Below are positions 1 to 55,914 of a stretch of DNA of 64,000 nucleotides, one piece after another (position 1 is the stretch's first letter; each line of letters starts with the position of its first letter). Source of the DNA: Crocinitomicaceae bacterium. Lineage in GTDB: Bacteria; Bacteroidota; Bacteroidia; Flavobacteriales_D; Crocinitomicaceae. Where the stretch lies: the NCBI GenBank assembly GCA_016708105.1, contig JADJGJ010000005.1, positions 14,432 through 78,431 of the forward strand. Reading direction: 5' to 3'. The position numbers and the translations under genes are program-made. Under the pieces are notes generated by a model. The model did not search any database, was not told where the DNA came from, and saw only the letters and a list, made by a program, of their open reading frames with translations.

Positions 1-3000
1 CTGCAACAATAAAATAATCGGCAGTTTCTTCCAGCGCAACTACCACTTTGCCATTGTAGGTGTCTTGCTCATCTTGCGGTTTCACAGCTTGCGTAGCGTT
101 CTTAATCAGGTTATTGAATACACGCAACATTAAATCTTTATCAGCCCATACAATGGATGGTTTTGAACGGTCAACCTGCAATTCAAGTTCGTATTCATCA
201 TTCTCTTCAAATACAGTTGCCGCCGCGTAGAGTAGTTCAGCTAAATTAATTTCATTCTCTGCGGCTTTCGGCATTTTAGCAAAGTTTGAAAATTCGTTGG
301 CAATTTGTGTAAGGGCATCAATTTGATCAATGAGCGATTTTGTTACCCGTTCAAGTTTTTCTTTTGAATCTTCATCAGCTAATTGAACTGAGCGTTTCAA
401 ATGTTGAATGGATAATTTCATTGGTGTGAGCGGATTTTTAATTTCATGCGCAACCTGTTTTGCCATTTCTCTCCAAGCACTTTCACGTTCACTTTTTGCT
501 AATTGTTCAGCGTTAATTTGTAATTCTTCAACTTTTTTATTGTACTCTTTCACCAGCTCACCAATTTCATCAGAACCTGCATATTCAATAGGTTTGGATA
601 CTGCTCCAATTTGAATGCTGCGCAAACTATCCTGAATATATTTCAGTGGACGCGTGAGGCGATTAGATAAAGTAATGGCTAAAATAGTTGACAAGGCAAG
701 CATTAAAACCATGATGTTGACAATAGCCAATAAGAAACCTGAAATTTGATTTTCAAGTTCGCCCTGTCGTGAAATGTACTGTACGTTTAAATAGGCAAGC
801 ATTTCTCCCTTATTATTAAAAAACGGCATGTAGGCTGACAAATAACTCAAGGCACCAATGCGCTCGTCATGGATAAATTCACTGCGGTGCAAATAATGAA
901 TTTGACGATAAGCTTCAGGATTCATTTTGCGTGAAAGAATTCCTTTAGAATATATTTTTGGTTGTGATGATGCCAGCAAATCTCCATCCAACGTGTACAA
1001 GTTGATGTCAGTTAAAAATATCGTGCTGAATTTTTTGAGAAGATATTCAAGATAATCTGAAAGTTCATGCCGCAGCTCTTTTTCATCTTTTAATTTATTT
1101 TGAAATTCAGTGCGTACTGAGGTGATTTTTTCATTGATCAATCCTTTGTTATTTTCATGATACTGCTCAGCCACAAAGGTTCCGGCACCAATACCAAATG
1201 CAACCAGTGAAATCAAAATGAGACCAATCATCACGGCTTGAATTTTCACATTCATTTTCATACTGCGAAATGAAAATCCCTTCATGAATTGTTGGTAACC
1301 AAGCGGAATTAAAAGCAAGACACCAAAGATGATTAGCAAATACGAAAAGGAAGTAAAAAGGGCGTATGCAGCGCTTACTTTTTTGCTCATCACCACGGTG
1401 TGTCCGTTCTCATATTCGTAGGTGTAATGGCTATATCCATCAATGATTTCAAATTGATTTACCTTTTTGAAATGATCTGTGCAGTGTAATGGATAAGCAT
1501 ATTCTCCTTTATGGTTCACCAACTTATCATCTACAAATTTTGCAATAGAATAGTGCTTGAGTTGATCTGAAAATTTTACCGGTTCTTCAAGTAACAAAGA
1601 GGGTAACCCAATGTCTTCCGGGAATTTTTTAGATCGCATTTCAGTGAATAGGTGCCCATGCAGCGAGTCGCCTGATGAAACAAGGTAATGTGCCAGATAA
1701 GTTAATTTATCACGGTAATCTCTGATGTAATAAATATGACTTGCAGAGTCAGTACGAATGCCTGAATCACGAATAATTTCAACCAGTCGGTCATATCCTT
1801 TTACATCATAATTTTTAAAATCATCTACAATAGATTTATCGCGTTTGAAGAGCGAAAAAGTGAGATCATATTTATTTCGGAGTCGTCTGAATGGCCCGGC
1901 TTCTAATTCTTCACTCAATTTTTTCTGGCTAAATTGACCAGAGAAATAGGGGAGTAGAAAATTAGTTTTGCTTAATTCACGTTCAACTTCGCTGTAATCA
2001 AATTCGGCCGTTTCATCACGGTCATCAGCAATAATTTCTGCGAGTTTTTGCCGTATTTCAGTCTCTTTTGCGTCATTATATCCTTTCAAAATAAATGAGG
2101 CGTAAAAAGAAATAAATGCAAGTGCTGAAACTACGTGTACAAATTTATACTCGCGGTCTTTGTATTGAAACAGCAGTAGAATGCCGCTCAACAAAACCGG
2201 CCACACTGAGGTTAACAAAGAATGCTCTGCGTAAATCTGATCTAGTCCTATATAACAAATAGAAATAATGAACCAGGCAAATGCCAGCCGATTGAGTTCA
2301 AATGCTGATTTTCTTAATTGTATAACTACATATTGGATGAGCAGAAAATAGGTGTAAAAAGCAATACCTATTAAGGCAATACTCACAAATGAATAGATGT
2401 CAAGATCAAAAAGATATTCAAGATCAAAATTGATTTGTGAATCATTCACCAAATCACGTATGAGTGTATTGATTTCAAATGCTACGTAAAATGAAACCAG
2501 AAAAAGCGGAAGCAGAAATACAGCAAGCTTCAACTTGATATTACCTTGTTTAAACCAGTTGCGAGTGCGCTTGAGTAAAAAATTTACCAGCAAATAAAAT
2601 ATGGAAAGATTGACGATGAGATCACCCAATGAAGGCACACTTTCTGAAGCAAAAAGTTCGGGCATAAAAATTTCAAAGTCAGACAGCGGTCCCAGCCAGC
2701 CTAACTGAATCCATGCATAACGCAAAACTACCAGCGCAATTGGAAATATAACCAGCAGGTATGATTTGCGAATGAGTAATTTCTGAAAACTATTAATGAG
2801 CAGTTGAATCAGAATTAAAAATGAAATCAGATAACAAAAAAAGATGACTAATTCTATGGAACTGTTGCGCTCATAGGTTTCAAGCGGGGCAATGTTGAAA
2901 ATGGGTTTGTTGTATTTATTGTGCACCGGAAAACCTTCACCATCTAAAACAATACGCCCTTTGAAATCAGGCATCAGGTGAGGAGAAAACATGTTCACCA

Positions 3001-3469
3001 GTTCATCATTTTCAAAATCATATTCATATTTGATGAGCATGCAGGCAACATATCGCTTATTGCCCGCAGTAAGGTATTCAAATTTGTACCATCCGTTTGA
3101 GAGCAGCACAATATTTCCATCTTGAATATAGGTGTCCCATTCGTTGGCTAAAGGAATACTGCTGGATGTCCACAAGGTAAGCGTGTCATCAGTGTAAATG
3201 AAATAATCAGTATGTGTTTCATCAGCAAAGTAGCGTGCGTACTCAAACTGCTCAAGTTCGGTGTTTTTTGACTCAACACCGGTGACAAGATTTTGAAGAT
3301 TTATTTCAAGTTCAGCGCATTTATTTTGAAAGGCTACTTCAAATTCTTGCACATCTTCTTCCGTGACGGTGTACTTGAGAAAATTTTCATGGAGAATAAA
3401 AGCAATGATCCAAAGCAGAAATCCCGCAATGGCTGACCAGATAAATTTGCTTTTATACTTTTGGTTCAT
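1..3469 (-). CDS. Multi-pass membrane sensor histidine kinase; 3' end lies beyond the left window edge
   Basis: Absent from the ORF track because no stop codon lies inside the window. My translation of the minus strand from ATG 3469 gives MNQKYKSKFIWSAIAGFLLWIIAF..., many hydrophobic segments, an NtrY-type H-box WREMAKQVAHEIKNPLTPMKLSIQHL (His codon at 446-448) and the start of an HATPase domain (LMLRVFNNLIKNATQAV...GKVVVALEETADYFIVA) at position 1. Confidence 0.85.
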   Translation of the reverse strand, partial: MNQKYKSKFIWSAIAGFLLWIIAFILHENFLKYTVTEEDVQEFEVAFQNKCAELEINLQNLVTGVESKNTELEQFEYARYFADETHTDYFIYTDDTLTLWTSSSIPLANEWDTYIQDGNIVLLSNGWYKFEYLTAGNKRYVACMLIKYEYDFENDELVNMFSPHLMPDFKGRIVLDGEGFPVHNKYNKPIFNIAPLETYERNSSIELVIFFCYLISFLILIQLLINSFQKLLIRKSYLLVIFPIALVVLRYAWIQLGWLGPLSDFEIFMPELFASESVPSLGDLIVNLSIFYLLVNFLLKRTRNWFKQGNIKLKLAVFLLPLFLVSFYVAFEINTLIRDLVNDSQINFDLEYLFDLDIYSFVSIALIGIAFYTYFLLIQYVVIQLRKSAFELNRLAFAWFIISICYIGLDQIYAEHSLLTSVWPVLLSGILLLFQYKDREYKFVHVVSALAFISFYASFILKGYNDAKETEIRQKLAEIIADDRDETAEFDYSEVERELSKTNFLLPYFSGQFSQKKLSEELEAGPFRRLRNKYDLTFSLFKRDKSIVDDFKNYDVKGYDRLVEIIRDSGIRTDSASHIYYIRDYRDKLTYLAHYLVSSGDSLHGHLFTEMRSKKFPEDIGLPSLLLEEPVKFSDQLKHYSIAKFVDDKLVNHKGEYAYPLHCTDHFKKVNQFEIIDGYSHYTYEYENGHTVVMSKKVSAAYALFTSFSYLLIIFGVLLLIPLGYQQFMKGFSFRSMKMNVKIQAVMIGLILISLVAFGIGAGTFVAEQYHENNKGLINEKITSVRTEFQNKLKDEKELRHELSDYLEYLLKKFSTIFLTDINLYTLDGDLLASSQPKIYSKGILSRKMNPEAYRQIHYLHRSEFIHDERIGALSYLSAYMPFFNNKGEMLAYLNVQYISRQGELENQISGFLLAIVNIMVLMLALSTILAITLSNRLTRPLKYIQDSLRSIQIGAVSKPIEYAGSDEIGELVKEYNKKVEELQINAEQLAKSERESAWREMAKQVAHEIKNPLTPMKLSIQHLKRSVQLADEDSKEKLERVTKSLIDQIDALTQIANEFSNFAKMPKAAENEINLAELLYAAATVFEENDEYELELQVDRSKPSIVWADKDLMLRVFNNLIKNATQAVKPQDEQDTYNGKVVVALEETADYFIVA

Positions 3470-4097
3470 CTGTTAATTCCAGTTTTTTAGCAATAACGGA
3501 GGTGAGTATATGAATATTTTCATCAAATGATTCATTATTGGTAATTACCAAATCAGAGGCATCTTTATGGGGCAGAATGAAATGGTGAAATGATGGCAAT
3601 ACATGATTTTTCCATTGATATAAAATCTGCGCTTCAGTATAATTGCGTTCATTCATATCTCTGCTTAGACGTCTCTTCAACTGCAATTCAGGTTCAACAG
3701 AGAGAAAAACTTTATAATCAAGCAGATCTTTTACAAAGGGATAGTGCATCACAAAAAGACCTTCAACTATTAGCAGTTCTTTAGGTTCAATGCGCGCTTT
3801 GTTTTTAGGTGCTTCAGGATTATTGAAGCCGTAAATATCATGTTCAATCACGTTGCCTTCAAGCAGATATTCAAGATCCATTTGAATGCGGTTTTGATCA
3901 AGTGCGGTTGGTAAATCAAAGTTGATCACACCATTTTCATCTACCCATTGATGTTCTTTTGGCAGGTAATAATTATCCAATGAAAAAGTAGAAACCCGGT
4001 TCTGGAATTCATGGTATAATTTCTGAATGAGTGTAGTTTTACCAACTCCGCTTCCGCCGGTAATACCAACTATAAATTTTATTTTTTGCTTATTCAC
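3453..4097 (-). CDS. udk: Uridine kinase
   Basis: P-loop GITGGSGVGKTTL with a uridine-kinase-like body. The frame is open to 4184, but GTG at 4097 (VNKQKIKFIVGITGG) gives the usual ~214 aa and leaves room for the divergent promoter box at 4164-4171. The stop overlaps the kinase start by 17 nt. Confidence 0.85.
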   Translation of the reverse strand: MNKQKIKFIVGITGGSGVGKTTLIQKLYHEFQNRVSTFSLDNYYLPKEHQWVDENGVINFDLPTALDQNRIQMDLEYLLEGNVIEHDIYGFNNPEAPKNKARIEPKELLIVEGLFVMHYPFVKDLLDYKVFLSVEPELQLKRRLSRDMNERNYTEAQILYQWKNHVLPSFHHFILPHKDASDLVITNNESFDENIHILTSVIAKKLELTDEPKV

Positions 4098-4163
4098 AAA
4101 AATGCAGGTGATTAAAGAGTTCCGAAAAATACGAAAAATCGCCCATTGAACATTGGAATCACG

Positions 4164-4171
4164 TAAATTTG
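4164..4171 (+). promoter_or_regulatory. Bacteroidota -7 type promoter box TAAATTTG
   Basis: Matches TAnnTTTG and lies 25 nt upstream of ATG 4197. Confidence 0.45.
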
Positions 4172-4196
4172 AGCAAATGTCCAACCACCGCCATTT

Positions 4197-4493
4197 ATGA
4201 CAGAAAATAAAGTGAATCTTGCCTTGCAGGTGCTGCCAGTTTCAGAAACCAAGCATCCTTATGCTATTGTTGACAAGGCAATTGGGGTAATCCAAAAATC
4301 AGGTTTGAAATTTCAAGTTTGTCCCTTTGAAACCGTTATTGAAGGTACTTGGAATCAAGTGATGCAAGTTGTGCGTGAAGTGCATGAAACTTGTTATGCC
4401 AATGAAACTGATAAGATGATGATGTATATCAAAATTCAATCAGACAGCAAACGTGATGTGACTATTGATGATAAGATGGAGAAGTATGGGTAA
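4197..4493 (+). CDS. MTH1187/YkoF-family thiamine-binding protein (UPF0045)
   Basis: 98 aa. The pattern LQVLPVS...AIVDKAIGVIQKSGLKFQVCPFETVIEGTWNQVMQVV is typical of this small family. Confidence 0.8.
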   Translation: MTENKVNLALQVLPVSETKHPYAIVDKAIGVIQKSGLKFQVCPFETVIEGTWNQVMQVVREVHETCYANETDKMMMYIKIQSDSKRDVTIDDKMEKYG

Positions 4494-4523
4494 ACGACCA
4501 ATGGCAATGGATACAATTTTGCA

Positions 4524-4613
4524 TTACTCATTGCTTTTTTTTCTCAATAGACGCAGTAATTTTTTAGGATTTTGCCGATTGTCCCAGAAAGCGGTTATAA
4601 TGATATTGGTTTT
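4524..4613 (-). pseudogene. Displaced 3' fragment of the RelE/ParE toxin gene
   Basis: The minus strand translates to KTNIIITAFWDNRQNPKKLLRLLRKKSNE*. This is the canonical C-terminus missing from the toxin ORF at 4855-5163. It has the same orientation and is preceded by the same KTN codons. Confidence 0.7.
4605..4613. repeat. Target-site duplication copy 1 (ATTGGTTTT)
   Basis: Perfect 9-bp direct repeat of 4924-4932, flanking the inserted element. Confidence 0.7.
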
Positions 4614-4923
4614 CACTATTGTCCGGGGAAAAAGTAAAATATTCAGATAAAGCTTCCCCGGCCATCAAAAAAGATAGGTGAATTGCGATTCTTAGTAAGG
4701 ACGGGCCGCAGATACGTTCCTTCAATTACAATGTTCCGGAGTCCGCACTTAGAATTTGCAAGAAGTATTGCCCTGCTTTTTGCGGGCCTGATTTTTCTTT
4801 GGGTCAAGCCAAAGAAGAAAACATAAAACCGAAACCAGTAAGCCCCACGGTTGATTATTTATTGAAATCAATTGGTGCCATTGGTTTCAAAGTCGTTCTA
4901 AAATATTTTATCGGACAGTAATG
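4614..4923. mobile_element. 310-bp non-autonomous MITE-like insertion
   Basis: Bounded by the 9-bp direct repeat ATTGGTTTT. Terminal inverted repeats are CACTATTGTCCGG (4614-4626) and CATTACTGTCCGA (reverse complement of 4911-4923), matching 10/13. It has no transposase-sized ORF and many internal hairpins. Removing it restores the toxin ORF. Confidence 0.65.
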
Positions 4924-5163
4924 ATTGGTTTTGGTGATTTTATAAAAAACACTAAAATGACCAAGGACAGACACATGCGTGTCAGGGTAGTTTACACTCT
5001 TGAATGAATAGGGATTTTTGTGAATAACGGAGATTTGCTCTGCAATAAGTTTGATCAATTTTTCGGCGTATAATGTTGTACCATTTCTTTCAATCCAGTA
5101 TTTCAATATTTCCCTTCGCTGTATTACAGCTGTGTTGGTCCAAACTACTGTTCTTTTAACCAT
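4855..5163 (-). CDS. RelE/ParE-family type II toxin with its C-terminus replaced by element-derived sequence (probably inactivated)
   Basis: MVKRTVVWTNTAVIQRREILKYWIERNG...HFSVFYKITKTN is typical of Bacteroidota RelE/ParE toxins. The last 22 aa (HYCPIKYF...) are read from the inserted element. Confidence 0.75.
   Translation of the reverse strand: MVKRTVVWTNTAVIQRREILKYWIERNGTTLYAEKLIKLIAEQISVIHKNPYSFKSVNYPDTHVSVLGHFSVFYKITKTNHYCPIKYFRTTLKPMAPIDFNK
4924..4932. repeat. Target-site duplication copy 2 (ATTGGTTTT)
   Basis: Perfect 9-bp direct repeat of 4605-4613. Confidence 0.7.
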
Positions 5164-5387
5164 TTCAAATCTGATTTATCAAGTTGAGATTGAGAAATCA
5201 CATTTCTCTCTGCGATATCTTTTTCGCTCATATTCAACATGACAATCTGTTCATTGGTGAGTTTTACTTTATCACTCTCTGCAGCACTGTTATTAACCAA
5301 TTGGAATAATGCGTTTAGGTAATCCTTATTGGAAATGGTCATAAGTTTTTCAATAATGCCATTGCGGATGTGATCAACTGAAGTCAT
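5145..5387 (-). CDS. Putative antitoxin of the RelE/ParE module
   Basis: 80 aa. It lies immediately upstream of the toxin and overlaps it by 19 nt. The sequence resembles the small antitoxin partners found with these toxins in Bacteroidota. Confidence 0.65.
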   Translation of the reverse strand: MTSVDHIRNGIIEKLMTISNKDYLNALFQLVNNSAAESDKVKLTNEQIVMLNMSEKDIAERNVISQSQLDKSDLKWLKEQ

Positions 5388-5702
5388 GACGTATTATTTA
5401 ATTAGTAAAGGTATGAAAAAAAAGTGATTTGAATTTTGTTCTTGAACTTTCCTATCATCACATTAGCACCTATTTCAGGACTTTTGTTTTCTGTTGTACT
5501 TTGTGCTTAATATTTGAGTTCAGGGGATACCATTTATACACAAAAGACTGCAGGGACATGAATGACCGTGAGGACAGTTTATTGTCCCTCCATGTCCTTA
5601 CTGTCCTTATTGCTATTACCCCCTATCAAAATTTACAAATCCAACTTCTCTGCAACAACTTTTCTCTTTATCTTCATTGCCTGTTATTAATTTAAAACTC
5701 TG

Positions 5703-6287
5703 ATGGCAAAAACTACATCCAAATCATTATCAGAAAAAGATCAACGTGATTTACTGGAAAAACTTGAACAGCGTTTCACAAAAAACATGCAACGACACAA
5801 AGGCATTGAATGGAAAAAAGTAGTAGATCAATTGAAAAAAAATTCAGCTTTTTTGATGACCCTTCACAAGATGGAATCTACAGGCGGAGAACCAGATATT
5901 GTTCTGCTAACTGATAAAAAAGAGGAACTCTTTTTTGTTGATTGTGCGGCTGAAACGCCGGTGGGAAGAAGAAGTTTGTGCTATGATCGTGCAGGCCTTG
6001 AATCACGAAAAGAAAATCGTCCGGTGAACAGTGCAATGGATTTGGCAAATGAAATTGGCATTGAAATGTTGGATGAGGATCAATACAGAAAATTGCAATC
6101 GGTTGGAAAGTTTGATACTAAAACGTCAAGTTGGTTAAAAACTCCTGCTGAAATCAGAAAACTGGGCGGTGCTATTTTTGCAGATTTTAGATTTGGACGT
6201 GTTTTTGTTTATCACAACACCGCCCAATCATACTATGGCAGTAGGGCATTCAGAGGATTTGTAAAAATTTCACATAACATAAAATGA
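5703..6287 (+). CDS. DUF4256 domain protein
   Basis: 194 aa. Motifs MESTGGEPDIV, RRSLCYDR, GKFDTKTSSWLKTP and YHNTAQSYYGSRAFRG match my recollection of DUF4256. Confidence 0.7.
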   Translation: MAKTTSKSLSEKDQRDLLEKLEQRFTKNMQRHKGIEWKKVVDQLKKNSAFLMTLHKMESTGGEPDIVLLTDKKEELFFVDCAAETPVGRRSLCYDRAGLESRKENRPVNSAMDLANEIGIEMLDEDQYRKLQSVGKFDTKTSSWLKTPAEIRKLGGAIFADFRFGRVFVYHNTAQSYYGSRAFRGFVKISHNIK

Positions 6288-7504
6288 AAGAAGCAATGAA
6301 TTTTTCAGAGATTAAAAACCACTGTAATCACGTATCGAAAATAAGTGCTGAATTGATTGATAAATATCTTTTGTATTATGCTGCTGAGCGTGAAAATTTG
6401 GAACCATACATGAATGCCCAAATAAAAAAATATAAACAGGCATCACGTGAATTACATCCAAGCTCATTGAATATTTTTAAATCAGAATTTATTGCGCATC
6501 GCATATTTAAAAAAGACGGACTTGTTCATCGGTATTTGCAACAAAGTGAAATTAAAAAAATTCCTGCTGAGCAATTTGAATTCCTTCAAGCGAACGCTGC
6601 AAAACCATGGAGATATTGTTTTGCTCAATTACTGGACAATCCTGAGAATGAATTTTTCAAGATGATTGACGTTTTTACCGGTGAAGAATTTCTGCTCTAT
6701 TCAAGAAGTATTCAGCAAACTCTGACTGAAATGAATCCGCGCTTGTGGTTTTTGTTGATTTCAGATAATGGAATGTGCTATCAAACATTCGGACTTGTTG
6801 TACCACTGAATTCATTTTTACCGGATGATATTTATTTTTTTGGAACTGAAATAAACCCTGATATTGACAGTGATGAAAAACTCATGAATGAGTTAGAGAA
6901 AAATCCATTCCCTTTCTTTATGTTGACAATCGTGGCTTCTCACCCTGTGGTTTATTCGGGTGATCATGAGATGAGAATTTGTCAGGCATACGATGATTAT
7001 TTGAATTTTGATACCAAGAAACTGGAAAAAGATTTTGAAATTGAATTGCGCAATGGAGTTTACAAATTGTCTCTGCGCCATTGGACCGAAAATCCACATT
7101 TTGCTATTGCTTATTTTGATACGATCGAAAATTGTTTACTCAGAACTGCCTTCACCTATGAAGGTTTTTACAAACTCACTGAAGCTATGGAACAATATGG
7201 ATTGGCACTAAACGCTGAACCTGATATTAGCGTCACTCCTACCATCATCAACACCGGAAGCAAAATTCTGAATAAAAAAATTCAGTATAATCCGTATGAC
7301 AAATTGTTTGTTACGGACAAAAAACAAGAGAATGATGAATCCCTCAAAAAAATGAATCAGTTTACACAGAAACTTGTGCATGTAATTAATTCAGGCAAAG
7401 AAATTGACATTAAAAAATTGGCTGACGATGCCGGCATTTCTGAGGAAACAGCAAATCAACTTTACTCCAGCTTTAAAGAAAATTTAGCAAAAAAGAAGGG
7501 TTAA
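6284..7504 (+). CDS. Hypothetical protein with no recognisable domain
   Basis: 406-aa ORF whose ATGA start overlaps the DUF4256 stop. Codon usage looks coding. Confidence 0.6.
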   Translation: MKEAMNFSEIKNHCNHVSKISAELIDKYLLYYAAERENLEPYMNAQIKKYKQASRELHPSSLNIFKSEFIAHRIFKKDGLVHRYLQQSEIKKIPAEQFEFLQANAAKPWRYCFAQLLDNPENEFFKMIDVFTGEEFLLYSRSIQQTLTEMNPRLWFLLISDNGMCYQTFGLVVPLNSFLPDDIYFFGTEINPDIDSDEKLMNELEKNPFPFFMLTIVASHPVVYSGDHEMRICQAYDDYLNFDTKKLEKDFEIELRNGVYKLSLRHWTENPHFAIAYFDTIENCLLRTAFTYEGFYKLTEAMEQYGLALNAEPDISVTPTIINTGSKILNKKIQYNPYDKLFVTDKKQENDESLKKMNQFTQKLVHVINSGKEIDIKKLADDAGISEETANQLYSSFKENLAKKKG

Positions 7505-7608
7505 AAGGAATAATACAGTTATCCAAATATTACATTTTCTTTCATGCGAATACAACTCGCCCATCCAATTTAATTCCTCTCTCTCACACTCATTCTCGCA
7601 CTGTCATC

Positions 7609-9312
7609 CTACGGAGCAAACTTCAACGGTTTTCCATCAGGGCCTACTTCAACACCATCAATGAAATTTTTCTCTTTCAACACACGGCCTTTTTCATCGT
7701 AGATAATTGTTTTTCCGTGTTTCTGTCCGTTTTTATAATTCACTTCAGAGGATACATAATGTGGACGCCATTCGTAGGTAAGCATCTTGCCGTGTAACAT
7801 GCCATTTTTGTACTCAATTACCTGAAAGGGTTTGTCTCCACCGGGGAAATAATATGTCCACGTACCGTCTTCTTTTCCTTCTTTGTAATACCCTTCATGG
7901 GTGCGCTTGTGATCTTTTGGACTGAAAAAAACCCACAATCCGTCTTTCACACTTTCTTTCACCGTGTGATTGGCAAGCGGACCGTAATTGATGTGTTGTT
8001 TTTTTACTTCAATTACTTTATAAAATCCTGTCTCCAGTAAATTTCCTTTTTCATCGTAACGCGTCCACAGTCCTGTTTTTAGATCATCTTCATATTCTCC
8101 GGTCAGTGTGAGTTTACCTTTTTGCGAATAGGATTTCCAGGGTCCGTGCAATTTTCCCATGTTGAAATTCGCTTCATTTTTCAACTTACCATTATCCCAA
8201 TATTGCTGCCAGTATCCGTGTTCTTCTCCTTCAACAAAATCTCCTTCATTCAAAATTTTTCCATTTTCATACCAGGTAGTCCAATGTCCGGTTTCCAAAT
8301 CATTTTCGTACGAACCTTCTCTCCACTTTGCGCCGTTTTTATAGTAAAATACCCATTCTCCGTTTCGCAATCCGGCTTTGAAATATCCCTTACTTTCAAG
8401 ATGCACCGTATCACCGGGATAATAATATTCCCAATATCCATCTTGCAATCCATCAACAAAATCACCGGACATATCAACGGTTCCTACATTGGTGTACCAG
8501 GTCCAGTGTCCTGTTTTTAATCCGTTGGAAAATTCTCCGGATACATTTACTTTTCCGTTGTCATAGTTTTTCAAATAAGGCCCGTTCAGTTGACCATTTA
8601 GATAATTTACTTTGCGGTCTAATCCTCCCAGATAATAGAAATACAACCATTCTCCGTGTTTTTCTCCTTCAAGATATTGACCAATAACAAAAGGTTTTTT
8701 ATTGGGTGTATATTCTTCAAAATCTCCGTCTTTTATACCGTCTTTGTAGGTGTAAAATTCATTGAGAAAACCACTTTCATAATAAATGAATGTGCGTCCG
8801 TTCCCATCTTTCAGGGTTTGGGTGCTGTCAGTTTTCCAAAAATTCATCACATAGGTAACTGAGTCTAATATTTTTTCTTCAGACATGTGGTATCCGTTGT
8901 AGTAATAATATTTCCACTCACCTGATGGTAAGCCTTTGGTGTAGTACCCTTGCACGCTGAGTTTACCATTATCATGCCATTGATAATAGACACTATCTTG
9001 AATACCAAATTTGAAAAATCCTTGTTCTTTTTTTTTGCCGTCAGAATAATAAGTTGTTACTGAACCGTGCAGTTCACCTTTGCGGTAATTTTGTTCTTCT
9101 TCCAAATTTCCGTTTTTATCCCAGTATCTCCACCGTCCGTGTTTGAGGGTAGTTTTACCATAAAAATCATCTGCAAAATAATAACCTTCACTTTGCATTT
9201 TGGTGCTGTAAAAATCCCAGTATGTGCGCACTAGATAAGGTTTGTTTATTTCATCCTGCGCATGTGAAAACAGGGGTAATAATAGCAGAAGAAAAATTAA
9301 GCGGGTATACAT
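7609..9312 (-). CDS. Secreted MORN-repeat-variant (YwqK-like) repeat protein
   Basis: Signal peptide MYTRLIFLLLLLPLFSHAQ followed by about 20 G-x-W-x-YY/G-K repeats (GEWKYYYYNG, GHWTWYTNVG and similar). Confidence 0.8.
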   Translation of the reverse strand: MYTRLIFLLLLLPLFSHAQDEINKPYLVRTYWDFYSTKMQSEGYYFADDFYGKTTLKHGRWRYWDKNGNLEEEQNYRKGELHGSVTTYYSDGKKKEQGFFKFGIQDSVYYQWHDNGKLSVQGYYTKGLPSGEWKYYYYNGYHMSEEKILDSVTYVMNFWKTDSTQTLKDGNGRTFIYYESGFLNEFYTYKDGIKDGDFEEYTPNKKPFVIGQYLEGEKHGEWLYFYYLGGLDRKVNYLNGQLNGPYLKNYDNGKVNVSGEFSNGLKTGHWTWYTNVGTVDMSGDFVDGLQDGYWEYYYPGDTVHLESKGYFKAGLRNGEWVFYYKNGAKWREGSYENDLETGHWTTWYENGKILNEGDFVEGEEHGYWQQYWDNGKLKNEANFNMGKLHGPWKSYSQKGKLTLTGEYEDDLKTGLWTRYDEKGNLLETGFYKVIEVKKQHINYGPLANHTVKESVKDGLWVFFSPKDHKRTHEGYYKEGKEDGTWTYYFPGGDKPFQVIEYKNGMLHGKMLTYEWRPHYVSSEVNYKNGQKHGKTIIYDEKGRVLKEKNFIDGVEVGPDGKPLKFAP

Positions 9313-18651: not shown

Positions 18652-18702
18652 TGTAGCGGGATTAAAAAAAATTTGGATTTTGACTCAAAAAATTTACTTC
18701 AT

Positions 18703-20340
18703 ATGAGAATAAAAAACTGGATACTAGCTGCAGTTATAATTTTTACAGGAGTTAACTTTAACTATGCTCAAACCTATAACATGGGTAATGGAACAATTAC
18801 TGCGTGTTCAGGTACTTTTTATGATAGTGGTGGTTCAGCAGGAAATTATTTGAGCTCAGAATTCTATACTCAAACAATTTGCTCTGGTACCCCTGGTAAT
18901 CCGGTCATATTGACTTTTACTTCTTTCAGCATTGAAAGTGGATATGATTTTTTAACTATTTATGATGGACCAACAACTGGTTCTCCTATCGTTGGAACCT
19001 ACACTGGTGCTGCCAGTCCCGGAACAATTACGGCGAGTGGTGAGTGTTTAACCCTGGTTTTTTCCTCGGATTTTATAATAGGGTATCCAGGATGGGCAGC
19101 AACAATTTCTTGTTCCACGCCACCTCCTCCACCGTGTGGGACTCCCGTAACTTTTAATTACACGGGAGGTGTTCAAAGCTATACAGTTCCTGCCGGTGTA
19201 ACTAGCCTTACAGTTGTGGTGGAGGGAGCACAAGGTGGTGGTCCTGGTGGATTGGGTGCAACTGTTACAGGAACAATTACTGTTACTCCAGGTCAGACTT
19301 TGCAAATTGTTGTTGGAGGTCAGGGTGGATGCCCTGCCGCAGGTTATGGAGGAGGAGGTTCAGGTCAAAATTCAAGCATTGCAGGATATCAAGGTTGCGG
19401 AGGAGGGGGAGCATCGTACATTTCCGCACCTCCGGGTGGAATGGCTAATGCGTTGATCGTCGCCGGCGGCGGCGGCGGAGACGGTGGCGGTGATGATTAT
19501 GGTGAGGGGGGTTATGGAGGATGTGCTTCAGGTGAAGCGGGGACAAGTCCTTTTGGTGTTGGTGGTGGTGGTGCAACAACTTCTGCAGGCGGAGCTGCTG
19601 GTCCGCCTTGGACTGCAGGAGGTGGATGGGGAGGCGCTGGAACTTTTGGTCAAGGTGGAGTTGGTGGAGTTGATATTAATTATGGCTATGCCCCAGGCGG
19701 CGGCGGCGGCGGCGGATACTATGGCGGCGGCGGCGGCGGTAGTGATAATATCAATATGACTACTCTTATTGGCGGTGGCGGCGGCGGTGGCGGTTCAAGT
19801 TTGGTTCCTTCTGGCGGGGGTTGTAATCCTGGTTCTAACACGGGTAACGGCTCAATCACAATCTACATTCCTACGCCAAACACAATGACCAGTCCAAGCA
19901 CCGCTGCTATTTGTAGTGGCGGAACTGTTAACATTCCTCTTACTAGCACTATTCCAGGTTCAACCTTCACTTGGGTTGCAACAGCAAATGGAAATGTTAC
20001 TGGTGAAAGCACTACTGTTCAAACTGCTTCAACACTAAACAACACCCTCACTAATACAACTTCATCAGTGCAGACAGTTACTTACACGGTTACACCCAGT
20101 TTCGGTGGATGTCCTGGAACGCCACAAACTGTTACAGTTACGGTGAATCCAATACCAACAGTAACCGACCCAGCCAACCAGACACTCTGTGCGAACACGG
20201 CAACTACAGCAGTAACATTCACGGGTACAGCAGGAGCTACATTCAACTGGACAAACAATACACCTTCAATCGGTCTTGCAGCAAGTGGAAGTGGAAACAT
20301 AGCATCATTTACAGCTATTAATGCAGGCACCACCCGGTAA
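18703..20340 (+). CDS. Giant T9SS adhesin, segment 1 of 4: signal peptide, CUB-like domain, glycine-rich domain, first PKD-like repeats
   Basis: ATG 18703 gives MRIKNWILAAVIIFTGVNFNYAQ. A CUB-like stretch follows (CSGTFYDSGG...YDFLTIYDG...LVFSSD), then a Gly-rich block (FNYTGGVQSYTVPAGV...GGGGGGYYGGGGGG). The segment ends at a TAA created by a 1-nt deletion at 20333-20335. Confidence 0.8.
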   Translation: MRIKNWILAAVIIFTGVNFNYAQTYNMGNGTITACSGTFYDSGGSAGNYLSSEFYTQTICSGTPGNPVILTFTSFSIESGYDFLTIYDGPTTGSPIVGTYTGAASPGTITASGECLTLVFSSDFIIGYPGWAATISCSTPPPPPCGTPVTFNYTGGVQSYTVPAGVTSLTVVVEGAQGGGPGGLGATVTGTITVTPGQTLQIVVGGQGGCPAAGYGGGGSGQNSSIAGYQGCGGGGASYISAPPGGMANALIVAGGGGGDGGGDDYGEGGYGGCASGEAGTSPFGVGGGGATTSAGGAAGPPWTAGGGWGGAGTFGQGGVGGVDINYGYAPGGGGGGGYYGGGGGGSDNINMTTLIGGGGGGGGSSLVPSGGGCNPGSNTGNGSITIYIPTPNTMTSPSTAAICSGGTVNIPLTSTIPGSTFTWVATANGNVTGESTTVQTASTLNNTLTNTTSSVQTVTYTVTPSFGGCPGTPQTVTVTVNPIPTVTDPANQTLCANTATTAVTFTGTAGATFNWTNNTPSIGLAASGSGNIASFTAINAGTTR

Positions 20341-21752
20341 CAGCAACTATTACAGTAACACCAACCTTGGGTGGCTGCACGGGCACTGCGCAAACATTTA
20401 CTATTACGGTGAATCCAATACCAACAGTAACCGACCCAGCCAACCAGACACTCTGCGCGAACACGGCAACAACTGCGGTAAACTTCACAGGCGCAATTGC
20501 AGGGACAACATATAACTGGACAAACAATACACCTTCAATCGGTCTAGCAGCAAGCGGCAGTGGAAACATAGCATCATTTACAGCCACCAACGCAGGCACC
20601 ACCCCGGTAACAGCAACTATTACAGTAACACCAACCTTGGCAGGCTGCACGGGCACTGCGCAAACATTTACTATTACGGTGAATCCAATACCAACAGTAA
20701 CCGACCCAGCCAACCAAACACTCTGCGCGAACACAGCAACTACAGCAGTAACATTCACGGGTACAGCAGGAGCTACATTCAACTGGACAAACAATACACC
20801 TTCAATCGGTCTTGCAGCAAGTGGAAGTGGAAACATAGCATCATTTACAGCTATTAATGCAGGCACCACCCCGGTAACAGCAACTATTACAGTAACACCA
20901 ACCTTGGGTGGCTGCACGGGCACTGCGCAAACATTTACTATTACGGTGAATCCAATACCAACAGTAACCGACCCAGCCAACCAGACACTCTGTGCGAACA
21001 CGGCAACTACAGCAGTAACATTCACGGGTACAGCAGGAGCTACATTCAACTGGACAAACAATACACCTTCAATCGGTCTTGCAGCAAGTGGAAGTGGAAA
21101 CATAGCATCATTTACAGCTATTAATGCAGGCACCACCCCGGTAACAGCAACTATTACAGTAACACCAACCTTGGGTGGCTGCACGGGCACTGCGCAAACA
21201 TTTACTATTACGGTGAATCCAATACCAACAGTAACCGACCCAGCCAACCAGACACTCTGCGCGAACACGGCAACAACTGCGGTAAACTTCACAGGCGCAA
21301 TTGCAGGGACAACATATAACTGGACAAACAATACACCTTCAATCGGTCTAGCAGCAAGCGGCAGTGGAAACATAGCATCATTTACAGCCACCAACGCAGG
21401 CACCACCCCGGTAACAGCAACTATTACAGTAACACCAACCTTGGCAGGCTGCACGGGTACTGCGCAAACATTTACCATTACAGTCAACCCAACACCAACA
21501 GTTACAGATCCGGCTGACCAGAGTATTTGTGCAGGAGGATCAACCACGGCGGTGAACTTTACCGGATCGATAGCCGGTACAACATATAACTGGACCAACA
21601 ATAACACCAGTATTGGCCTTGCGGCAAGTGGTACAGGAAATATTGCATCATTTATAGGAGTTAACGGTACTGGAGCTCCAATTACAGCAACAATAACGGT
21701 TACTCCAACCACAGGCGGCTGTACGGGAACACCACAGACTTTTACGATTACA
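20143..21752 (+). repeat. Six near-identical tandem 267/270-bp coding repeats (PKD-like units)
   Basis: Unit starts (GTGAATCC/GTCAACCC) fall at 20143, 20409, 20679, 20946, 21213 and 21483. Two sequence variants (TFTGTAGATF, 267 bp; NFTGAIAGTTY, 270 bp) are interleaved. Confidence 0.9.
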
Positions 21753-23393
21753 GTTACGCCAAATCCAGTGATTGCAGTTGCAGGCACCAACCCAACCATT
21801 TGTACCGGCACAGACGGAACCATAACGATCACGGGATTAGCAGCCAGCACGGCATATAGCGTGAGTTATACAGATGACGGCGTACCTGTTGGACCATTAG
21901 CGATGACCTCTAATGCGGGAGGTTCGATCGTGATAACGGGTCTTAATGCCGGAGCGTACACTAACTTCCAGGTGAGCATGGGATCATGTGTGAGCACGAG
22001 TGCGACGTTGATCACTTTAGTAGATCCAAACCCTCCAATGGTGAACGACCCAGCTGACCAAACACTCTGCGCGAACACGGCAACTACAGCAGTAACATTC
22101 ACGGGTACAGCAGGAGCTACATTCAACTGGACAAACAATACACCTTCAATCGGTCTTGCAGCAAGCGGCAGTGGAAACATAGCATCATTTACAGCTATTA
22201 ATGCAGGCACCACCCCGGTAACGGCAACTATTACAGTAACACCAACCTTGGCAGGCTGCACGGGTACTGCGCAAACATTTACTATTACGGTAAATCCAAT
22301 TCCAACAGTAACTGATCCGGCAGATCAAACTTTGTGTTCAGGCAATGCTACTACAGCGGTAAACTTTACCGGAACAGCGGGAGCAACTTTCAATTGGACG
22401 AATAACAATACAAGTATTGGTCTTGCAGCAAGCGGCAGCGGTAATATAGCATCATTCACAGCCACCAATGCGACAGCGCTTCCCATAACAGCAACTATTA
22501 CTGTAACTCCGGTATTGGGTCCATGTACAGGCACTCCACAAACATTTACTATTACGGTAAACCCAACACCAACGGTGACAGATCCGGCGGACCAGACTTT
22601 GTGTTCTGGCAACGCAACGACAGCGGTGAACTTCACAGGTACAGCGGGAGCCACGTTTAACTGGACGAACAGCAATACAGCGATAGGTTTAGCAGCGAGT
22701 GGCAGCGGTAATATAGCATCATTCACAGCCACCAATGCAACAGCGCTTCCCATAACAGCAACTATTACTGTAACTCCGGTATTGGGCCCATGTACCGGCA
22801 CTCCACAAACATTTACCATTACAGTCAACCCAACACCAACAGTTACAGATCCTGCAGATCAAAGTGTTTGTGCAGGAGGAACAACAACAGCTGTAAACTT
22901 TATGGGTACAGCCGGAGCGACATTTAACTGGACAAACAACAATACAGGCATAGGTCTTGCAGCCAGTGGCACAGGCAATATTGCATCATTTACGGGAATC
23001 AATGGCACAGGTGCGCCAGTAACGGCAACCATTACCGTGACTCCGGTACTTGGACCATGTACAGGTACCCCACAAACATTTACCATTACAGTGAATCCAA
23101 ATCCGGTGATTGCAGTTGCAGGCACCAACCCAACCATTTGTACCGGCACAGACGGAACCATAACGATCACGGGATTAGCAGCCAGTACGGCATATAGCGT
23201 GAGTTATACAGATGACGGCGTACCTGTTGGACCATTAGCGATGACCTCTAATGCGGGAGGATCAATAGTGATAACGGGTCTTAATGCCGGAGCGTACACT
23301 AACTTAAGTGAGCATGGGATCATGTGTGAGCACGAGTGCAACGTTGATCACTTTAGTAGATCCAAACCCTCCAATGGTGAACGATCCAGCTGA
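20367..23393 (+). CDS. Giant T9SS adhesin, segment 2 of 4: PKD-like tandem repeats
   Basis: These are ORF-track coordinates; the frame is actually open from about 20334 and continues the repeat interrupted in segment 1. It consists of 89/90-aa units (NPIPTVTDPANQTLCANTATTAV..NWTNNTPSIGLAASGSGNIASF..TATITVTP..C.GT.QTFTITV). Confidence 0.8.
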   Translation: MGGCTGTAQTFTITVNPIPTVTDPANQTLCANTATTAVNFTGAIAGTTYNWTNNTPSIGLAASGSGNIASFTATNAGTTPVTATITVTPTLAGCTGTAQTFTITVNPIPTVTDPANQTLCANTATTAVTFTGTAGATFNWTNNTPSIGLAASGSGNIASFTAINAGTTPVTATITVTPTLGGCTGTAQTFTITVNPIPTVTDPANQTLCANTATTAVTFTGTAGATFNWTNNTPSIGLAASGSGNIASFTAINAGTTPVTATITVTPTLGGCTGTAQTFTITVNPIPTVTDPANQTLCANTATTAVNFTGAIAGTTYNWTNNTPSIGLAASGSGNIASFTATNAGTTPVTATITVTPTLAGCTGTAQTFTITVNPTPTVTDPADQSICAGGSTTAVNFTGSIAGTTYNWTNNNTSIGLAASGTGNIASFIGVNGTGAPITATITVTPTTGGCTGTPQTFTITVTPNPVIAVAGTNPTICTGTDGTITITGLAASTAYSVSYTDDGVPVGPLAMTSNAGGSIVITGLNAGAYTNFQVSMGSCVSTSATLITLVDPNPPMVNDPADQTLCANTATTAVTFTGTAGATFNWTNNTPSIGLAASGSGNIASFTAINAGTTPVTATITVTPTLAGCTGTAQTFTITVNPIPTVTDPADQTLCSGNATTAVNFTGTAGATFNWTNNNTSIGLAASGSGNIASFTATNATALPITATITVTPVLGPCTGTPQTFTITVNPTPTVTDPADQTLCSGNATTAVNFTGTAGATFNWTNSNTAIGLAASGSGNIASFTATNATALPITATITVTPVLGPCTGTPQTFTITVNPTPTVTDPADQSVCAGGTTTAVNFMGTAGATFNWTNNNTGIGLAASGTGNIASFTGINGTGAPVTATITVTPVLGPCTGTPQTFTITVNPNPVIAVAGTNPTICTGTDGTITITGLAASTAYSVSYTDDGVPVGPLAMTSNAGGSIVITGLNAGAYTNLSEHGIMCEHECNVDHFSRSKPSNGERSS

Positions 23394-50317: not shown

Positions 50318-50440
50318 TCCTACTTTTTTTTGGTCTTGTAACAATTAGTACAAAATATTATTCAGAAAAAAATTGGTTGAACAATGAGTCAATGGGTTCA
50401 AATTAAATTTGCCTTGAGATTTTTTTCTGCTCTCATTTTT

Positions 50441-50850
50441 CCTCCCCCTTAATCCCCCTCCAGAGGGGGAAAGCCACGGCACAATGGTTTCCGAAAAGTG
50501 TGAACTAGCGCTACTTCCTCTCTCTTGCGGAGAGAGGAAAGAGGAGAGAGGAAAAAGAACGTCATGGTATCTCCTCCCCCTTAATCCCCCTCCAGAGGGG
50601 GAAAGCCACGGCACAATGGTTTCCGAAAAGTGTGAACTAACGTCACTTCCTCTCTCTTGCGGAGAGAGGAAAGAGGAGTGAGGAAAAAAACGCAAGGGTT
50701 TCCGCAAAGTGCGTACTAACGTCACTTCCTCTCTCCTTGGGAGAGAGGAGAGAGGAGAGAAGGAAAGCCACGGCACAAGGGTTTCCGAAAAGTGTGAACT
50801 AGCGCTACTTCCTCTCTCTTGCGGAAAGAGGAGAGAGGAGAGAGGAAAAA
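50441..50850. repeat. Composite intergenic tandem repeat with GC-rich hairpins
   Basis: A 132-bp unit occurs twice (starting 50441 and 50573), followed by two shorter units. The core GGTTTCCG[A/C]AAAGTG[T/C]G[A/T]ACTA.CG..ACTTCCTCTCTC occurs four times (about 50486, 50618, 50697 and 50780). Hairpins are CCCCCTCCAGAGGGGG and CCTCTCTCTTGCGGAGAGAGG. Confidence 0.85.
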
Positions 50851-50855
50851 AGCCC

Positions 50856-50863
50856 TATCTTTG
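50856..50863 (+). promoter_or_regulatory. -7 type promoter box TATCTTTG
   Basis: Lies 25 nt upstream of ATG 50889. The same context, AAAAA.CCCTATCTTT, recurs at 55871-55887. Confidence 0.45.
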
Positions 50864-50888
50864 CCCACCTAACCTAACAATTCTCACA

Positions 50889-55862: not shown

Positions 55863-55914
55863 CACCTTAAAAAAATCCCTATCTTTACCCTCCAATTCAG
55901 TATCACTATTTACT

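What the first reader, a model, noticed from the sequence alone, without database searches (positions are those of the whole stretch)
4605..4932. A 310-bp MITE-like element with a 9-bp target-site duplication splits the RelE/ParE toxin gene
Read on the minus strand, the toxin ORF (4855-5163) looks like a normal RelE/ParE toxin up to ...HFSVFYKITKTN. It then runs into 22 unrelated residues (HYCPIKYFRTTLKPMAPIDFNK*). The missing canonical C-terminus, IIITAFWDNRQNPKKLLRLLRKKSNE*, is encoded in the same orientation at 4524-4604, directly after the same codons AAA ACC AAT (KTN). The intervening 4614-4923 is bounded by a perfect 9-bp direct repeat ATTGGTTTT (4605-4613 and 4924-4932). It also has imperfect terminal inverted repeats, CACTATTGTCCGG and CATTACTGTCCGA (10/13), with further subterminal similarity (AAAATATT..AGA). 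Removing the element plus one repeat copy restores an uninterrupted ~106-aa toxin ORF in frame. The element has no transposase-sized ORF and is rich in internal hairpins (for example CCGGGGAA 4623-4630 with TTCCCCGG 4653-4660), so it looks non-autonomous. The likely outcome is that the toxin is neutralised while the antitoxin gene stays intact.
Basis: seen in the sequence. Interest (0 to 1): 0.72.

Follow-up and report, generated by a model that had tools for sequence, protein, structure and literature searches.

The report
Small transposon splits a toxin gene
A 310-bp non-autonomous transposon (a MITE whose ends match an IS4-family insertion sequence common in Bacteroidota) has recently jumped into a ParE-type toxin gene and cut off its most conserved part; it is a clean but ordinary example of gene disruption by a mobile element.

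Summary
The observation and the interpretation both hold. Window 4614-4923 is a 310-bp insert flanked by a perfect 9-bp duplication (ATTGGTTTT). A second Crocinitomicaceae MAG contig (L001), about 98% identical over 8.5 kb, has the empty site. It carries one copy of the 9-mer and an intact 106-aa toxin identical to the predicted repair.

The insert's ends (CAYTAYTGTCCG...TAAAATATT) are those of a widespread Bacteroidota element class:
- A scan of species-representative genomes hit its 120-locus limit.
- 42 of those ends had a mate end plus a 9-bp duplication, against 0 in shuffled controls. These form 14 sequence clusters: 12 of short non-coding elements (78-584 bp), plus a 1115-bp deletion derivative and a full-length IS.
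- Three full-length 1.42-kb insertion sequences carry the same ends, 9-bp duplications and an IS4-family transposase (DUF4372 + DDE, YREK motif).

The insertion falls after residue 80. It removes the last beta-strand and C-terminal helix, which hold the invariant AFWDNRQ motif of a ParE-fold toxin. The antitoxin gene is intact.

No second copy of this particular 310-bp sequence was found, so its copy number and its own parent IS are unknown.

Verdict: a new, unnamed member of a known kind. Interest is low to moderate.

The parts
4614..4923 (.). 310-bp non-autonomous transposable element (MITE) with IS4-family-type ends and no transposase ORF
   Evidence: This segment is absent from the otherwise ~98% identical contig L001. 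It holds no long ORF: six-frame translation shows at most 79 stop-free codons. A transposase query finds no match to it. Its GC content is about 42%, against about 34% in the flanks.
4605..4613 (.). Target-site duplication, copy 1 (ATTGGTTTT)
   Evidence: It is present once in the empty site of L001 and twice in the window, directly outside the element ends.
4924..4932 (.). Target-site duplication, copy 2 (ATTGGTTTT)
   Evidence: Same evidence as copy 1. A 9-bp duplication is the rule in this element class: 32 perfect 9-bp duplications among the 42 complete elements.
4614..4643 (+). Left end: terminal repeat CACTATTGTCCG, a 9-nt spacer, and the subterminal TAAAATATT
   Evidence: It matches the end pattern, for which 0 matches are expected by chance in the window. 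The class consensus is CAcTAcTGTCCGatTAAAATATT.
4902..4923 (-). Right end: terminal repeat CATTACTGTCCG, a 1-nt spacer, and the subterminal TAAAATATT
   Evidence: Read in the toxin frame, this end encodes the foreign tail HYCPIKYF...
4789..4828 (+). Internal hairpin module (TTCTTTGG-GTCAAG-CCAAAGAA), also present in other MITE families and other repeats of uncultured bacteria
   Evidence: It matches 396-bp MITEs of a Bacteroidales MAG at 85-88% over 40 bp. The module recurs in 9 of 10 metagenome loci. Its function is unknown.
4924..5163 (-). 5' part of the ParE-family toxin gene (residues 1-80). The ORF as it now stands runs on to 4855 through 22 element-encoded codons.
   Evidence: The 102-aa product is deposited as MBK7131167.1.
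4524..4604 (-). Displaced 3' part of the toxin gene (residues 81-106 and the stop codon)
   Evidence: It is identical to the C-terminus of the intact toxin P0001. It holds the invariant residues A85 F86 W87 D88 N89 R90 Q91 P93. In the model it forms the last beta-strand and the C-terminal helix.
5145..5387 (-). Intact upstream partner gene (80 aa, presumed antitoxin), overlapping the toxin start by 19 nt
   Evidence: The ORF is listed. The identical protein sits next to the intact toxin in L001. It has no Pfam or NCBIfam family, so its antitoxin role is inferred from position only.

Best explanation
A 310-bp miniature inverted-repeat transposable element has inserted into a ParE-family toxin gene of a Crocinitomicaceae genome.

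**What the element is.** It encodes no transposase. It carries the two ends recognised by a Bacteroidota lineage of IS4-family insertion sequences. These are about 1.42 kb long, encode a single DUF4372 + DDE transposase with the YREK motif, have ends CAYTAYTGTCCGRNTAAAAT, and make 9-bp target duplications.

**How it moved (inferred).** A transposase supplied in trans by such an IS bound the two ends and excised the element. It then joined the element to a 9-bp staggered cut in the target AAAACCAAT (codons K78-T79-N80). Repair of the stagger produced the flanking direct repeat.

**What it did to the gene.** The toxin reading frame now leaves the gene after residue 80 and reads 22 foreign codons from the element end (HYCPIKYF...) to a stop. 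The last beta-strand and the C-terminal helix, including the invariant AFWDNRQ-P motif, are no longer joined to the protein.

**Likely result (inferred).** The toxin is most likely inactive, while the upstream partner gene is untouched.

**Timing.** The insertion is recent. The duplication is perfect. The two toxin-gene halves and the antitoxin gene are 100% identical in DNA to the uninterrupted allele of a sister genome whose flanks differ by about 2%.

Shown: the insertion itself, its exact boundaries, the class the ends belong to, and which part of the protein is lost. Inferred: trans-mobilisation, the cut-and-paste chemistry, and loss of toxicity.
For: **Empty site.** L001 (JADJXZ010000017.1 of GCA_016720025.1) aligns to window 1-8870 at 98.3-98.7% identity. 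It has one copy of the 9-mer and lacks the 310 bp. Its 106-aa toxin equals the predicted repair.

**Element class.**
In 97 of the 120 the end reads CAYTAYTGTCCG-NN-TAAAATATT.
- 42 ends have a mate end plus a 9-bp duplication, 32 of them perfect. Six shuffled mate patterns gave 0.
- These 42 elements form 14 sequence clusters, 12 of them short non-coding elements of 78-584 bp.

**Autonomous relatives.** Three full-length IS carry the same ends:
- L050: 1423 bp, duplication ATTTCTAAT.
- L137: 1423 bp, duplication ATTTTTACC.
- L140: 1418 bp, duplication ATTTTATTA.

Each encodes a 401-aa transposase. For the L050 protein, Pfam gives DUF4372 (64 bits) and DDE_Tnp_1 (90 bits), and NCBIfam gives transpos_IS4_1 at 207 bits against a cutoff of 115. 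Its sequence YKNRWMIELLFKQIK fits Y-(2)-R-(3)-E-(6)-K. The features fit the IS4Sa subgroup row of Table 1 in PMC2266710: 1150-1750 bp, ends CA------T, YREK present, direct repeats of 8-10 bp.

**Toxin.**
- The repaired protein passes Pfam ParE_toxin and the interrupted one does not.
- Only the window's own product has the HYCP tail among 120 homologues.
- Residues 82-97 are the best conserved stretch.
- The AlphaFold2 model (pLDDT 86) places strand 80-88 and helix 93-105 after the break.
- The best structural matches are ParE toxins, with TM-scores of 0.70-0.83.

**Recency.** There are 0 differences in the 545-bp toxin-antitoxin operon, against 173 differences (mismatches and gaps) over 8.5 kb of alignment.
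Against: - **No second copy found.** This 310-bp sequence was not found in the window, in 120 genome loci, in 10 metagenome loci, in plasmid or phage collections, in viral contigs, or as called ORFs in the protein collection. These searches were narrow or capped. The rest of the source genome could not be read.
- **No transposase source seen.** No IS4-type transposase lies in the 64-kb window or on L001, so the source of transposase in this organism is unknown.
- **Atypical end spacing.** The spacers between the terminal 12-mer and TAAAATATT are 9 nt and 1 nt in this element, against 2 nt in 97 of 120 related ends. Whether such ends are still good transposase substrates is untested.
- **Toxicity not measured.** Loss of toxicity is an inference.
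Confidence: 0.9

Rival explanations
1. A full-length 1.4-kb IS inserted here and was later reduced in place to 310 bp by internal deletion. On this reading the segment is a one-off IS remnant, not a mobile MITE that arrived as a 310-bp unit.
For: No second copy of the 310-bp sequence was found. Deletion derivatives do occur in this class: L031 is a 1115-bp element with a truncated transposase ORF.
Against: The interior shows no trace of transposase coding sequence. Instead it shares a 40-bp module, and looser similarity around it, with an established 396-bp MITE family. The toxin-antitoxin operon is still 100% identical to the empty allele, which leaves little time for insertion, deletion and complete erosion of the interior.
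Confidence: 0.07
2. Assembly artefact. The metagenome assembler placed a repeat inside the toxin gene, or joined two strains, and no real genome has this arrangement.
For: Both genomes are metagenome-assembled. Repeats of this class often sit at contig ends in other MAGs.
Against: A misjoin would not produce an exact 9-bp duplication of the target directly outside both inverted ends. That duplication matches the rule seen in 32 other insertions of the class. The flanks on both sides are collinear with L001 over 8.5 kb.
Confidence: 0.02
3. There is no mobile element. The toxin simply has a divergent C-terminus, followed by an unrelated short ORF and a chance direct repeat.
For: The 9-mer occurs 7 times on the + strand of the window. 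NCBI's annotation lists the 102-aa product as an ordinary RelE/ParE toxin.
Against: The empty-site allele argues against it. The ends match a class with hundreds of members and autonomous IS relatives. The tail is unique among 120 homologues. The interrupted product falls below the Pfam threshold.
Confidence: 0.01

Closest known systems
IS4-family insertion sequences, IS4Sa-like subgroup (De Palmenaer et al. 2008, PMC2266710)
   Same: The autonomous relatives found here (L050, L137, L140) share the subgroup's features. They have a single-ORF DDE transposase with the YREK motif. They are 1.42 kb long, within the 1150-1750 bp range. Their ends start 5'-CA with a variable third base and T at position 9. 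They make 9-bp duplications, within the 8-10 bp range.
   Different: The window element has only the ends and no transposase. The subgroup was assigned from tabulated features, not from a transposase tree. The N-terminal DUF4372 domain and the 23-bp end consensus mark a Bacteroidota lineage that I could not match to a named ISfinder entry with these tools.
Non-autonomous derivatives of IS4-family elements, such as the IS231-derived mobile insertion cassettes (MIC231) of Bacillus cereus (recalled from memory, not checked here)
   Same: They consist of two IS4-family ends around a non-transposase interior, are presumably mobilised in trans, and are flanked by a target duplication about one helical turn long.
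   Different: The host phylum, end sequences and subgroup differ. MICs usually carry passenger genes, whereas this element is non-coding.
Bacteroidota MITEs of Porphyromonas gingivalis (BrickBuilt, MITEPgRS/MITE464, MITE239, MITE700; PMC4596501)
   Same: They are small non-coding inverted-repeat elements in the same phylum, with hairpin-rich interiors and parent IS elements inferred from shared ends.
   Different: Their ends are IS5-type (GAGACC...), their duplications are short and variable, and they lie between genes. The element here has IS4-type ends, a fixed 9-bp duplication, and sits inside a gene.
ParE toxins of ParDE-type type II toxin-antitoxin systems (e.g. PDB 5cw7 ParE2, 6xrw, 5ceg, 3kxe, 9w3a PfiT)
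   Same: The repaired toxin passes Pfam PF05016. Its model superposes on these structures with TM-scores of 0.70-0.83. A small upstream gene overlaps its start.
   Different: Sequence identity is only 14-19%, and a profile search found no PDB relative by sequence. The partner protein matches no known antitoxin family. The cellular target (gyrase or ribosome) is unknown.

Membership tests
[quoted passage not shown] | Small size (about 50-1000 bp) and no transposase gene | tested here: met
   The element is 310 bp. The longest stop-free stretch is 79 codons. A transposase query finds no similarity, and translated frames find no protein homologue.
[quoted passage not shown] | Terminal inverted repeats | tested here: met
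   The ends match at 10 of 13 positions (11 of the first 12 if Y = C or T is allowed). Both also carry a subterminal TAAAATATT.
[quoted passage not shown] | Target-site duplication of fixed length, confirmed by an empty site | tested here: met
   The window has a perfect 9-bp duplication and L001 has a single copy.
[quoted passage not shown] | Ends shared with an autonomous IS that can supply transposase | tested here: met
   L050, L137 and L140 are 1418-1423-bp IS with the same terminal 12-mer and TAAAAT, 9-bp duplications and an IS4-family transposase. Such an IS was not found in the source organism itself.
[quoted passage not shown] | Several copies of the same element in a genome | tested here: inconclusive
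   No second copy turned up in any sequence I could search. Sister families do have multiple copies per genome.
IS4 family (for the parent IS class) | Single-ORF DDE transposase with the Y-(2)-R-(3)-E-(6)-K signature | tested here: met
   The L050 transposase scores 207 bits on NCBIfam transpos_IS4_1 (cutoff 115) and 90 bits on Pfam DDE_Tnp_1. It contains YKNRWMIELLFKQIK. The definition is taken from PMC2266710.
IS4 family (for the parent IS class) | Target duplication of about 8-13 bp, not the 4-6 bp of IS701, ISH3 and IS1634 | tested here: met
   The duplication is 9 bp in 3 full-length IS and in the short relatives, 32 of the 42 complete elements having perfect duplications.
IS4 family, IS4Sa subgroup | Ends CA------T with a relaxed third base, size 1150-1750 bp, direct repeats of 8-10 bp | tested here: met
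   The ends read CAYTAYTGT..., the size is 1418-1423 bp, and the repeat is 9 bp.
IS4 family, IS4Sa subgroup | Transposase clusters with IS4Sa members in a phylogeny | not tested
   No reference set of ISfinder transposases was available. Plasmid hits at 28-31% identity include an 'IS4-like element ISRm16 family transposase'.
RelE/ParE toxin superfamily (Pfam PF05016) | Profile match above the curated threshold | tested here: met
   The repaired protein scores 29.4 bits against a cutoff of 23 and covers profile positions 1-88 of 89. The interrupted protein scores 22.2 bits and covers positions 1-74.
RelE/ParE toxin superfamily (Pfam PF05016) | RelE/ParE fold (N-terminal helical hairpin packed on an antiparallel sheet) | tested here: met
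   The model has pLDDT 86 and pTM 0.75. Its top Foldseek matches are ParE toxins, with E-values from 1e-5 and TM-scores of 0.70-0.83.
RelE/ParE toxin superfamily (Pfam PF05016) | Operon with a small upstream antitoxin | tested here: inconclusive
   An 80-aa ORF overlaps the toxin start by 19 nt and is conserved next to the toxin in L001. It matches no antitoxin family.
RelE/ParE toxin superfamily (Pfam PF05016) | Toxic activity that the partner neutralises | not testable with these tools
   This needs expression experiments.

The most novel reading that the evidence does not exclude
The class of Bacteroidota MITEs with CAYTAYTGTCCG ends may not be only junk. Several unrelated families, including this one, carry a shared internal hairpin module (core GGGTCAAGCC between T-rich and A-rich arms). 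In the window copy one stem position has changed from T-A to C-G. The module could be functional cargo that these elements spread, for instance a transposase-binding enhancer, a transcription signal or a small RNA. Separately, insertion into the toxin may be selected, because it turns an addiction module into a free-standing antitoxin.
Probability: 0.1. Interest if true: 0.5.

Novelty: new member of a known kind. Interest (0 to 1): 0.27.

Why it matters
- **Annotation.** The 102-aa product is deposited as an ordinary RelE/ParE toxin (MBK7131167.1) although it is a disrupted gene. The end-encoded peptide HYCP(I)K(Y/I)F could flag other genes broken by this element class.
- **Mobile-element biology.** The 23-bp end consensus, the 9-bp A/T-rich palindromic target (A-T-W-W-N-W-W-A-T) and the many short families describe a widespread, apparently unnamed IS4-type MITE class in Bacteroidota. 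It probably also causes contig breaks in MAGs.
- **Strain comparison.** The filled and empty alleles in two near-identical genomes give a dated example of toxin-antitoxin decay in which the toxin goes first.

None of this challenges current understanding.

Tried and rejected
- **Rfam.** A scan of 4300-5300 at a permissive threshold gave only chance-level hits.
- **Plasmid and phage collections.** blastn with the element found no match.
- **Protein collection.** A search with the concatenated open frames of the element, meant to catch spurious ORFs called in other copies, found nothing.
- **Viral contigs.** A family-specific end gave 0 hits. The class end pattern gave 5 hits with atypical spacing, which I did not pursue.
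- **Metagenome scan.** The internal module gave 10 loci, none a copy of this element.
- **Source contig.** Attempts to reach the rest of it by exact protein look-up failed, because the contig is not in the position index.
- **PDB.** A profile search by sequence gave no hit, so I used a structure prediction and fold search instead.
- **Literature.** Searches for the end sequences and for DUF4372 + IS4 gave only primer coincidences or nothing. The P. gingivalis MITE paper describes a different, IS5-type class.
- **Periodic TIR-like matches.** Near-matches to the terminal 12-mer at 24.6-29 kb looked like more ends. They are codons of a tandem domain repeat inside a 1964-aa ORF.
- **Promoters and terminators.** Counts in the region are at chance level, so I make no claim that the element carries an outward promoter.

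Full report
**1. The observation**

Read on the minus strand, the sequence runs ...ATCACC AAAACCAAT | CATTACTGTCCGATAAAATATT ... AATATTTTACTTTTTCCCCGGACAATAGTG | AAAACCAAT ATCATTATAACC....

- The 9-mer ATTGGTTTT (+ strand) is at 4605-4613 and 4924-4932.
- The segment between the two copies is 310 bp.
- Its ends match in inverted orientation at 10 of 13 positions, and both have a subterminal TAAAATATT.
- The minus-strand ORF 4855-5163 gives 102 aa ending in HYCPIKYFRTTLKPMAPIDFNK.
- Removing the segment and one repeat copy gives a 106-aa ORF.
- No other copy of the segment lies in the window.

**2. The decisive test: an empty site**

The 80-aa protein encoded upstream of the toxin is encoded, in identical form, on one other public contig. 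That contig is JADJXZ010000017.1 of GCA_016720025.1, fetched as L001.

- L001 aligns to window 1-8870 in two blocks of 98.3% and 98.7% identity. The blocks meet exactly at the 9-mer.
- In window orientation the L001 site reads ...TAATGATATTGGTTTTGGTGATTTT..., with one copy of ATTGGTTTT and no insert.
- Its toxin gene encodes 106 aa, identical to the predicted repair.
- Both proteins are deposited from Crocinitomicaceae MAGs. MBK8928012.1 is the intact form. MBK7131167.1 is the window's 102-aa product, on a 90,525-bp contig.

So the 310 bp is an insertion with a 9-bp target duplication. It is not a divergent gene end.

**3. What the insert is**

I built a pattern from the two ends (AATATTTTA, a gap of 0-12, then CGGACARTARTG).

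- In the window it matches only those two ends, with 0 matches expected by chance.
Nearly all are in Bacteroidota: Bacteroidales, Chitinophagales and Flavobacterium.
- In 97 of the 120 the end reads CAYTAYTGTCCG-NN-TAAAATATT, and many ends sit at contig ends.
- Looking inward from each end, 42 have a mate end within 4 kb together with a 9-bp duplication of the flank. The duplication is perfect in 32. Six shuffled versions of the mate 12-mer gave none.
- The 42 elements fall into 14 sequence clusters. Twelve are clusters of short non-coding elements with lengths of 78-584 bp, several with 3-8 copies among the sampled loci. The other two are a single 1115-bp deletion derivative and a single full-length IS. 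The window element is a singleton outside all 14 clusters.
- The duplicated targets are 92% A+T, with the palindromic preference A-T-W-W-N-W-W-A-T. The window's target ATTGGTTTT fits this only loosely.

**4. The autonomous relatives**

- One of the 42 elements (L050, a Flavihumibacter MAG) is 1423 bp long. It has the duplication ATTTCTAAT and one 401-aa ORF.
- That protein has Pfam DUF4372 and DDE_Tnp_1. It scores 207 bits on NCBIfam transpos_IS4_1, against a cutoff of 115. It contains YKNRWMIELLFKQIK, the Y-(2)-R-(3)-E-(6)-K signature that defines the IS4 family (PMC2266710).
- L031 is a 1115-bp deletion derivative of a second lineage, about 42% identical in protein. L095 carries the N-terminal part of a transposase 49% identical to L050's, cut off by the contig end.
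- The protein collection holds 5359 relatives at E <= 1e-30. Many sit on contigs of about 1.42 kb.
- Two further full-length copies fetched from longer contigs have the same ends and perfect 9-bp duplications. L137 is 1423 bp with ATTTTTACC. L140, from Ferruginibacter, is 1418 bp with ATTTTATTA.
- Size, 5'-CA ends with a variable third base and T at position 9, the YREK motif and the 9-bp repeats all fit the IS4Sa row of Table 1 in PMC2266710. I did not build a tree, so the subgroup assignment is provisional.
- No such transposase is encoded in the window or on L001.

**5. What was hit**

- The repaired protein matches Pfam ParE_toxin over profile positions 1-88 of 89, at 29.4 bits against a cutoff of 23. 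The interrupted product reaches 22.2 bits and stops at profile position 74.
- Among the 120 best homologues, at 59-76% identity in the subset aligned, only the window's own product has the HYCP tail. 115 of them carry the F-W-D-x-R-Q motif.
- Residues 82-97 (IITAFWDNRQDPKKLL) are the best conserved stretch. A85, F86, W87, D88, N89, R90, Q91 and P93 are invariant in a 25-sequence alignment.
- A profile search found no solved structure by sequence.
- An AlphaFold2 model (pLDDT 86, pTM 0.75) has strand 5-8, helices 10-27 and 31-49, strands 62-67, 70-76 and 80-88, and helix 93-105.
- The model superposes best on ParE toxins: PfiT 9w3a, ParE2 5cw7, 6xrw, 5ceg, 7r5a, 8c24 and 3kxe, with TM-scores of 0.70-0.83. 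RelE, YoeB and YafQ rank behind them.
- The break after residue 80 therefore removes the last strand of the sheet and the C-terminal helix.

Loss of function is an inference from this evidence. From memory, the C-terminal residues of ParE toxins are needed for toxicity.

The upstream 80-aa gene is intact. It matches no described antitoxin family.

**6. Timing**

Without the insert, the 545-bp toxin-antitoxin operon is identical in DNA between the window and L001. The 8.5-kb alignment as a whole has 173 differences, counting mismatches and gaps. The duplication is perfect, and neither toxin-gene half has decayed. The insertion is recent.

**7. Mechanism**

- **Shown:** an element with IS4-type ends sits in a gene with a 9-bp duplication, and autonomous IS with the same ends and the same duplication length exist.
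- **Inferred from what is known of IS4-family transposases (Tn5 and Tn10 as models):** a transposase supplied in trans binds the ends, excises the element by cut-and-paste, and inserts it at a 9-bp staggered cut.
- **Open question:** the unusual spacing between the terminal 12-mer and the TAAAATATT box in this element (9 nt and 1 nt, against the usual 2 nt) leaves it uncertain whether it can still move.

**8. What remains open**

- I found no second copy of this particular 310-bp sequence.
- I could not read the rest of the source genome.
- An insertion of a full IS followed by deletion in place is therefore not excluded. It is unlikely, because the interior has no transposase remnant and shares a 40-bp module with an established 396-bp MITE family.
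- That module is a hairpin with arms TTCTTTGG and CCAAAGAA around the loop GTCAAG. It recurs in other repeats in metagenomes. Its function is unexplained. The window copy differs from the others by one T-A to C-G change in the stem, which is too little for a covariation argument.

**9. Verdict**

Observation and interpretation are confirmed. This is a new, unnamed member of a known kind: a MITE of IS4-family type in Bacteroidota, disrupting a ParE-type toxin gene. It is a neat, well-documented case, useful for annotation. It is not surprising biology.

Noticed in passing
window 4789-4828; also L026, L028, L064, L119, L122, L124-L131: A conserved hairpin module recurs in the window MITE, in a 396-bp MITE family of a Bacteroidales MAG, in a ~302-bp MITE with the same ends (L129), and in other repeats from metagenomes. 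It reads (CTTGAC-T7-GTTTC-)T-rich arm, GGGTCAAGCC, A-rich arm. The upstream CTTGAC is complementary to the loop GTCAAG. Its function is unknown.
   Followed up: partly
window 4614-4616 (minus strand) with 4524-4613: The last three bases of the element (GTG on the minus strand) are in frame with the displaced toxin 3' part. This gives a mechanical 30-aa ORF, MKTNIIITAFWDNRQ.... There is no evidence that it is expressed.
   Followed up: no
window 24055-29260 (inside ORF 24603-30497, + strand): This region holds a long tandem domain repeat (periods 240 and 483 bp, about 10-21 copies) in a 1964-aa ORF. Its repeated codons GCGGACAAYTG produce periodic near-matches to the MITE terminal 12-mer. These are coincidental and are not transposon ends.
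   Followed up: yes
window 20138-23100: This region holds 267-bp-period tandem repeats (80-91% matches, about 4-6 copies per array) inside large ORFs (18673-20340 and 20367-23393). They are probably repeated surface-protein domains.
   Followed up: no
window 55796-55867: A heptamer microsatellite, (CCTAACC) x 10, that resembles a telomere repeat, in an apparently intergenic stretch.
   Followed up: no
window 50440-50848: A tandem repeat with periods of 132 and 79 bp, made of G+C-rich hairpins (CCCCCTCCAGAGGGGG; CCTCTCTCTTGCGGAGAGAGG). It lies just upstream of, and overlaps, the start of ORF 50709-51512. It may be another repeat element.
   Followed up: no
L050 1640-2755: A second, distantly related IS4-type transposase gene (28% identity) lies directly beside the 1423-bp IS in the Flavihumibacter contig. 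This suggests a cluster of IS insertions.
   Followed up: no
L002-L121 (many loci): Ends of this element class very often lie within about 50-250 bp of contig ends in MAGs. That suggests these MITEs and IS are a common cause of assembly breaks in Bacteroidota metagenome bins.
   Followed up: no
window 4855-5163: The public annotation (MBK7131167.1) names the 102-aa interrupted product as an ordinary RelE/ParE family toxin and does not flag it as disrupted.
   Followed up: yes
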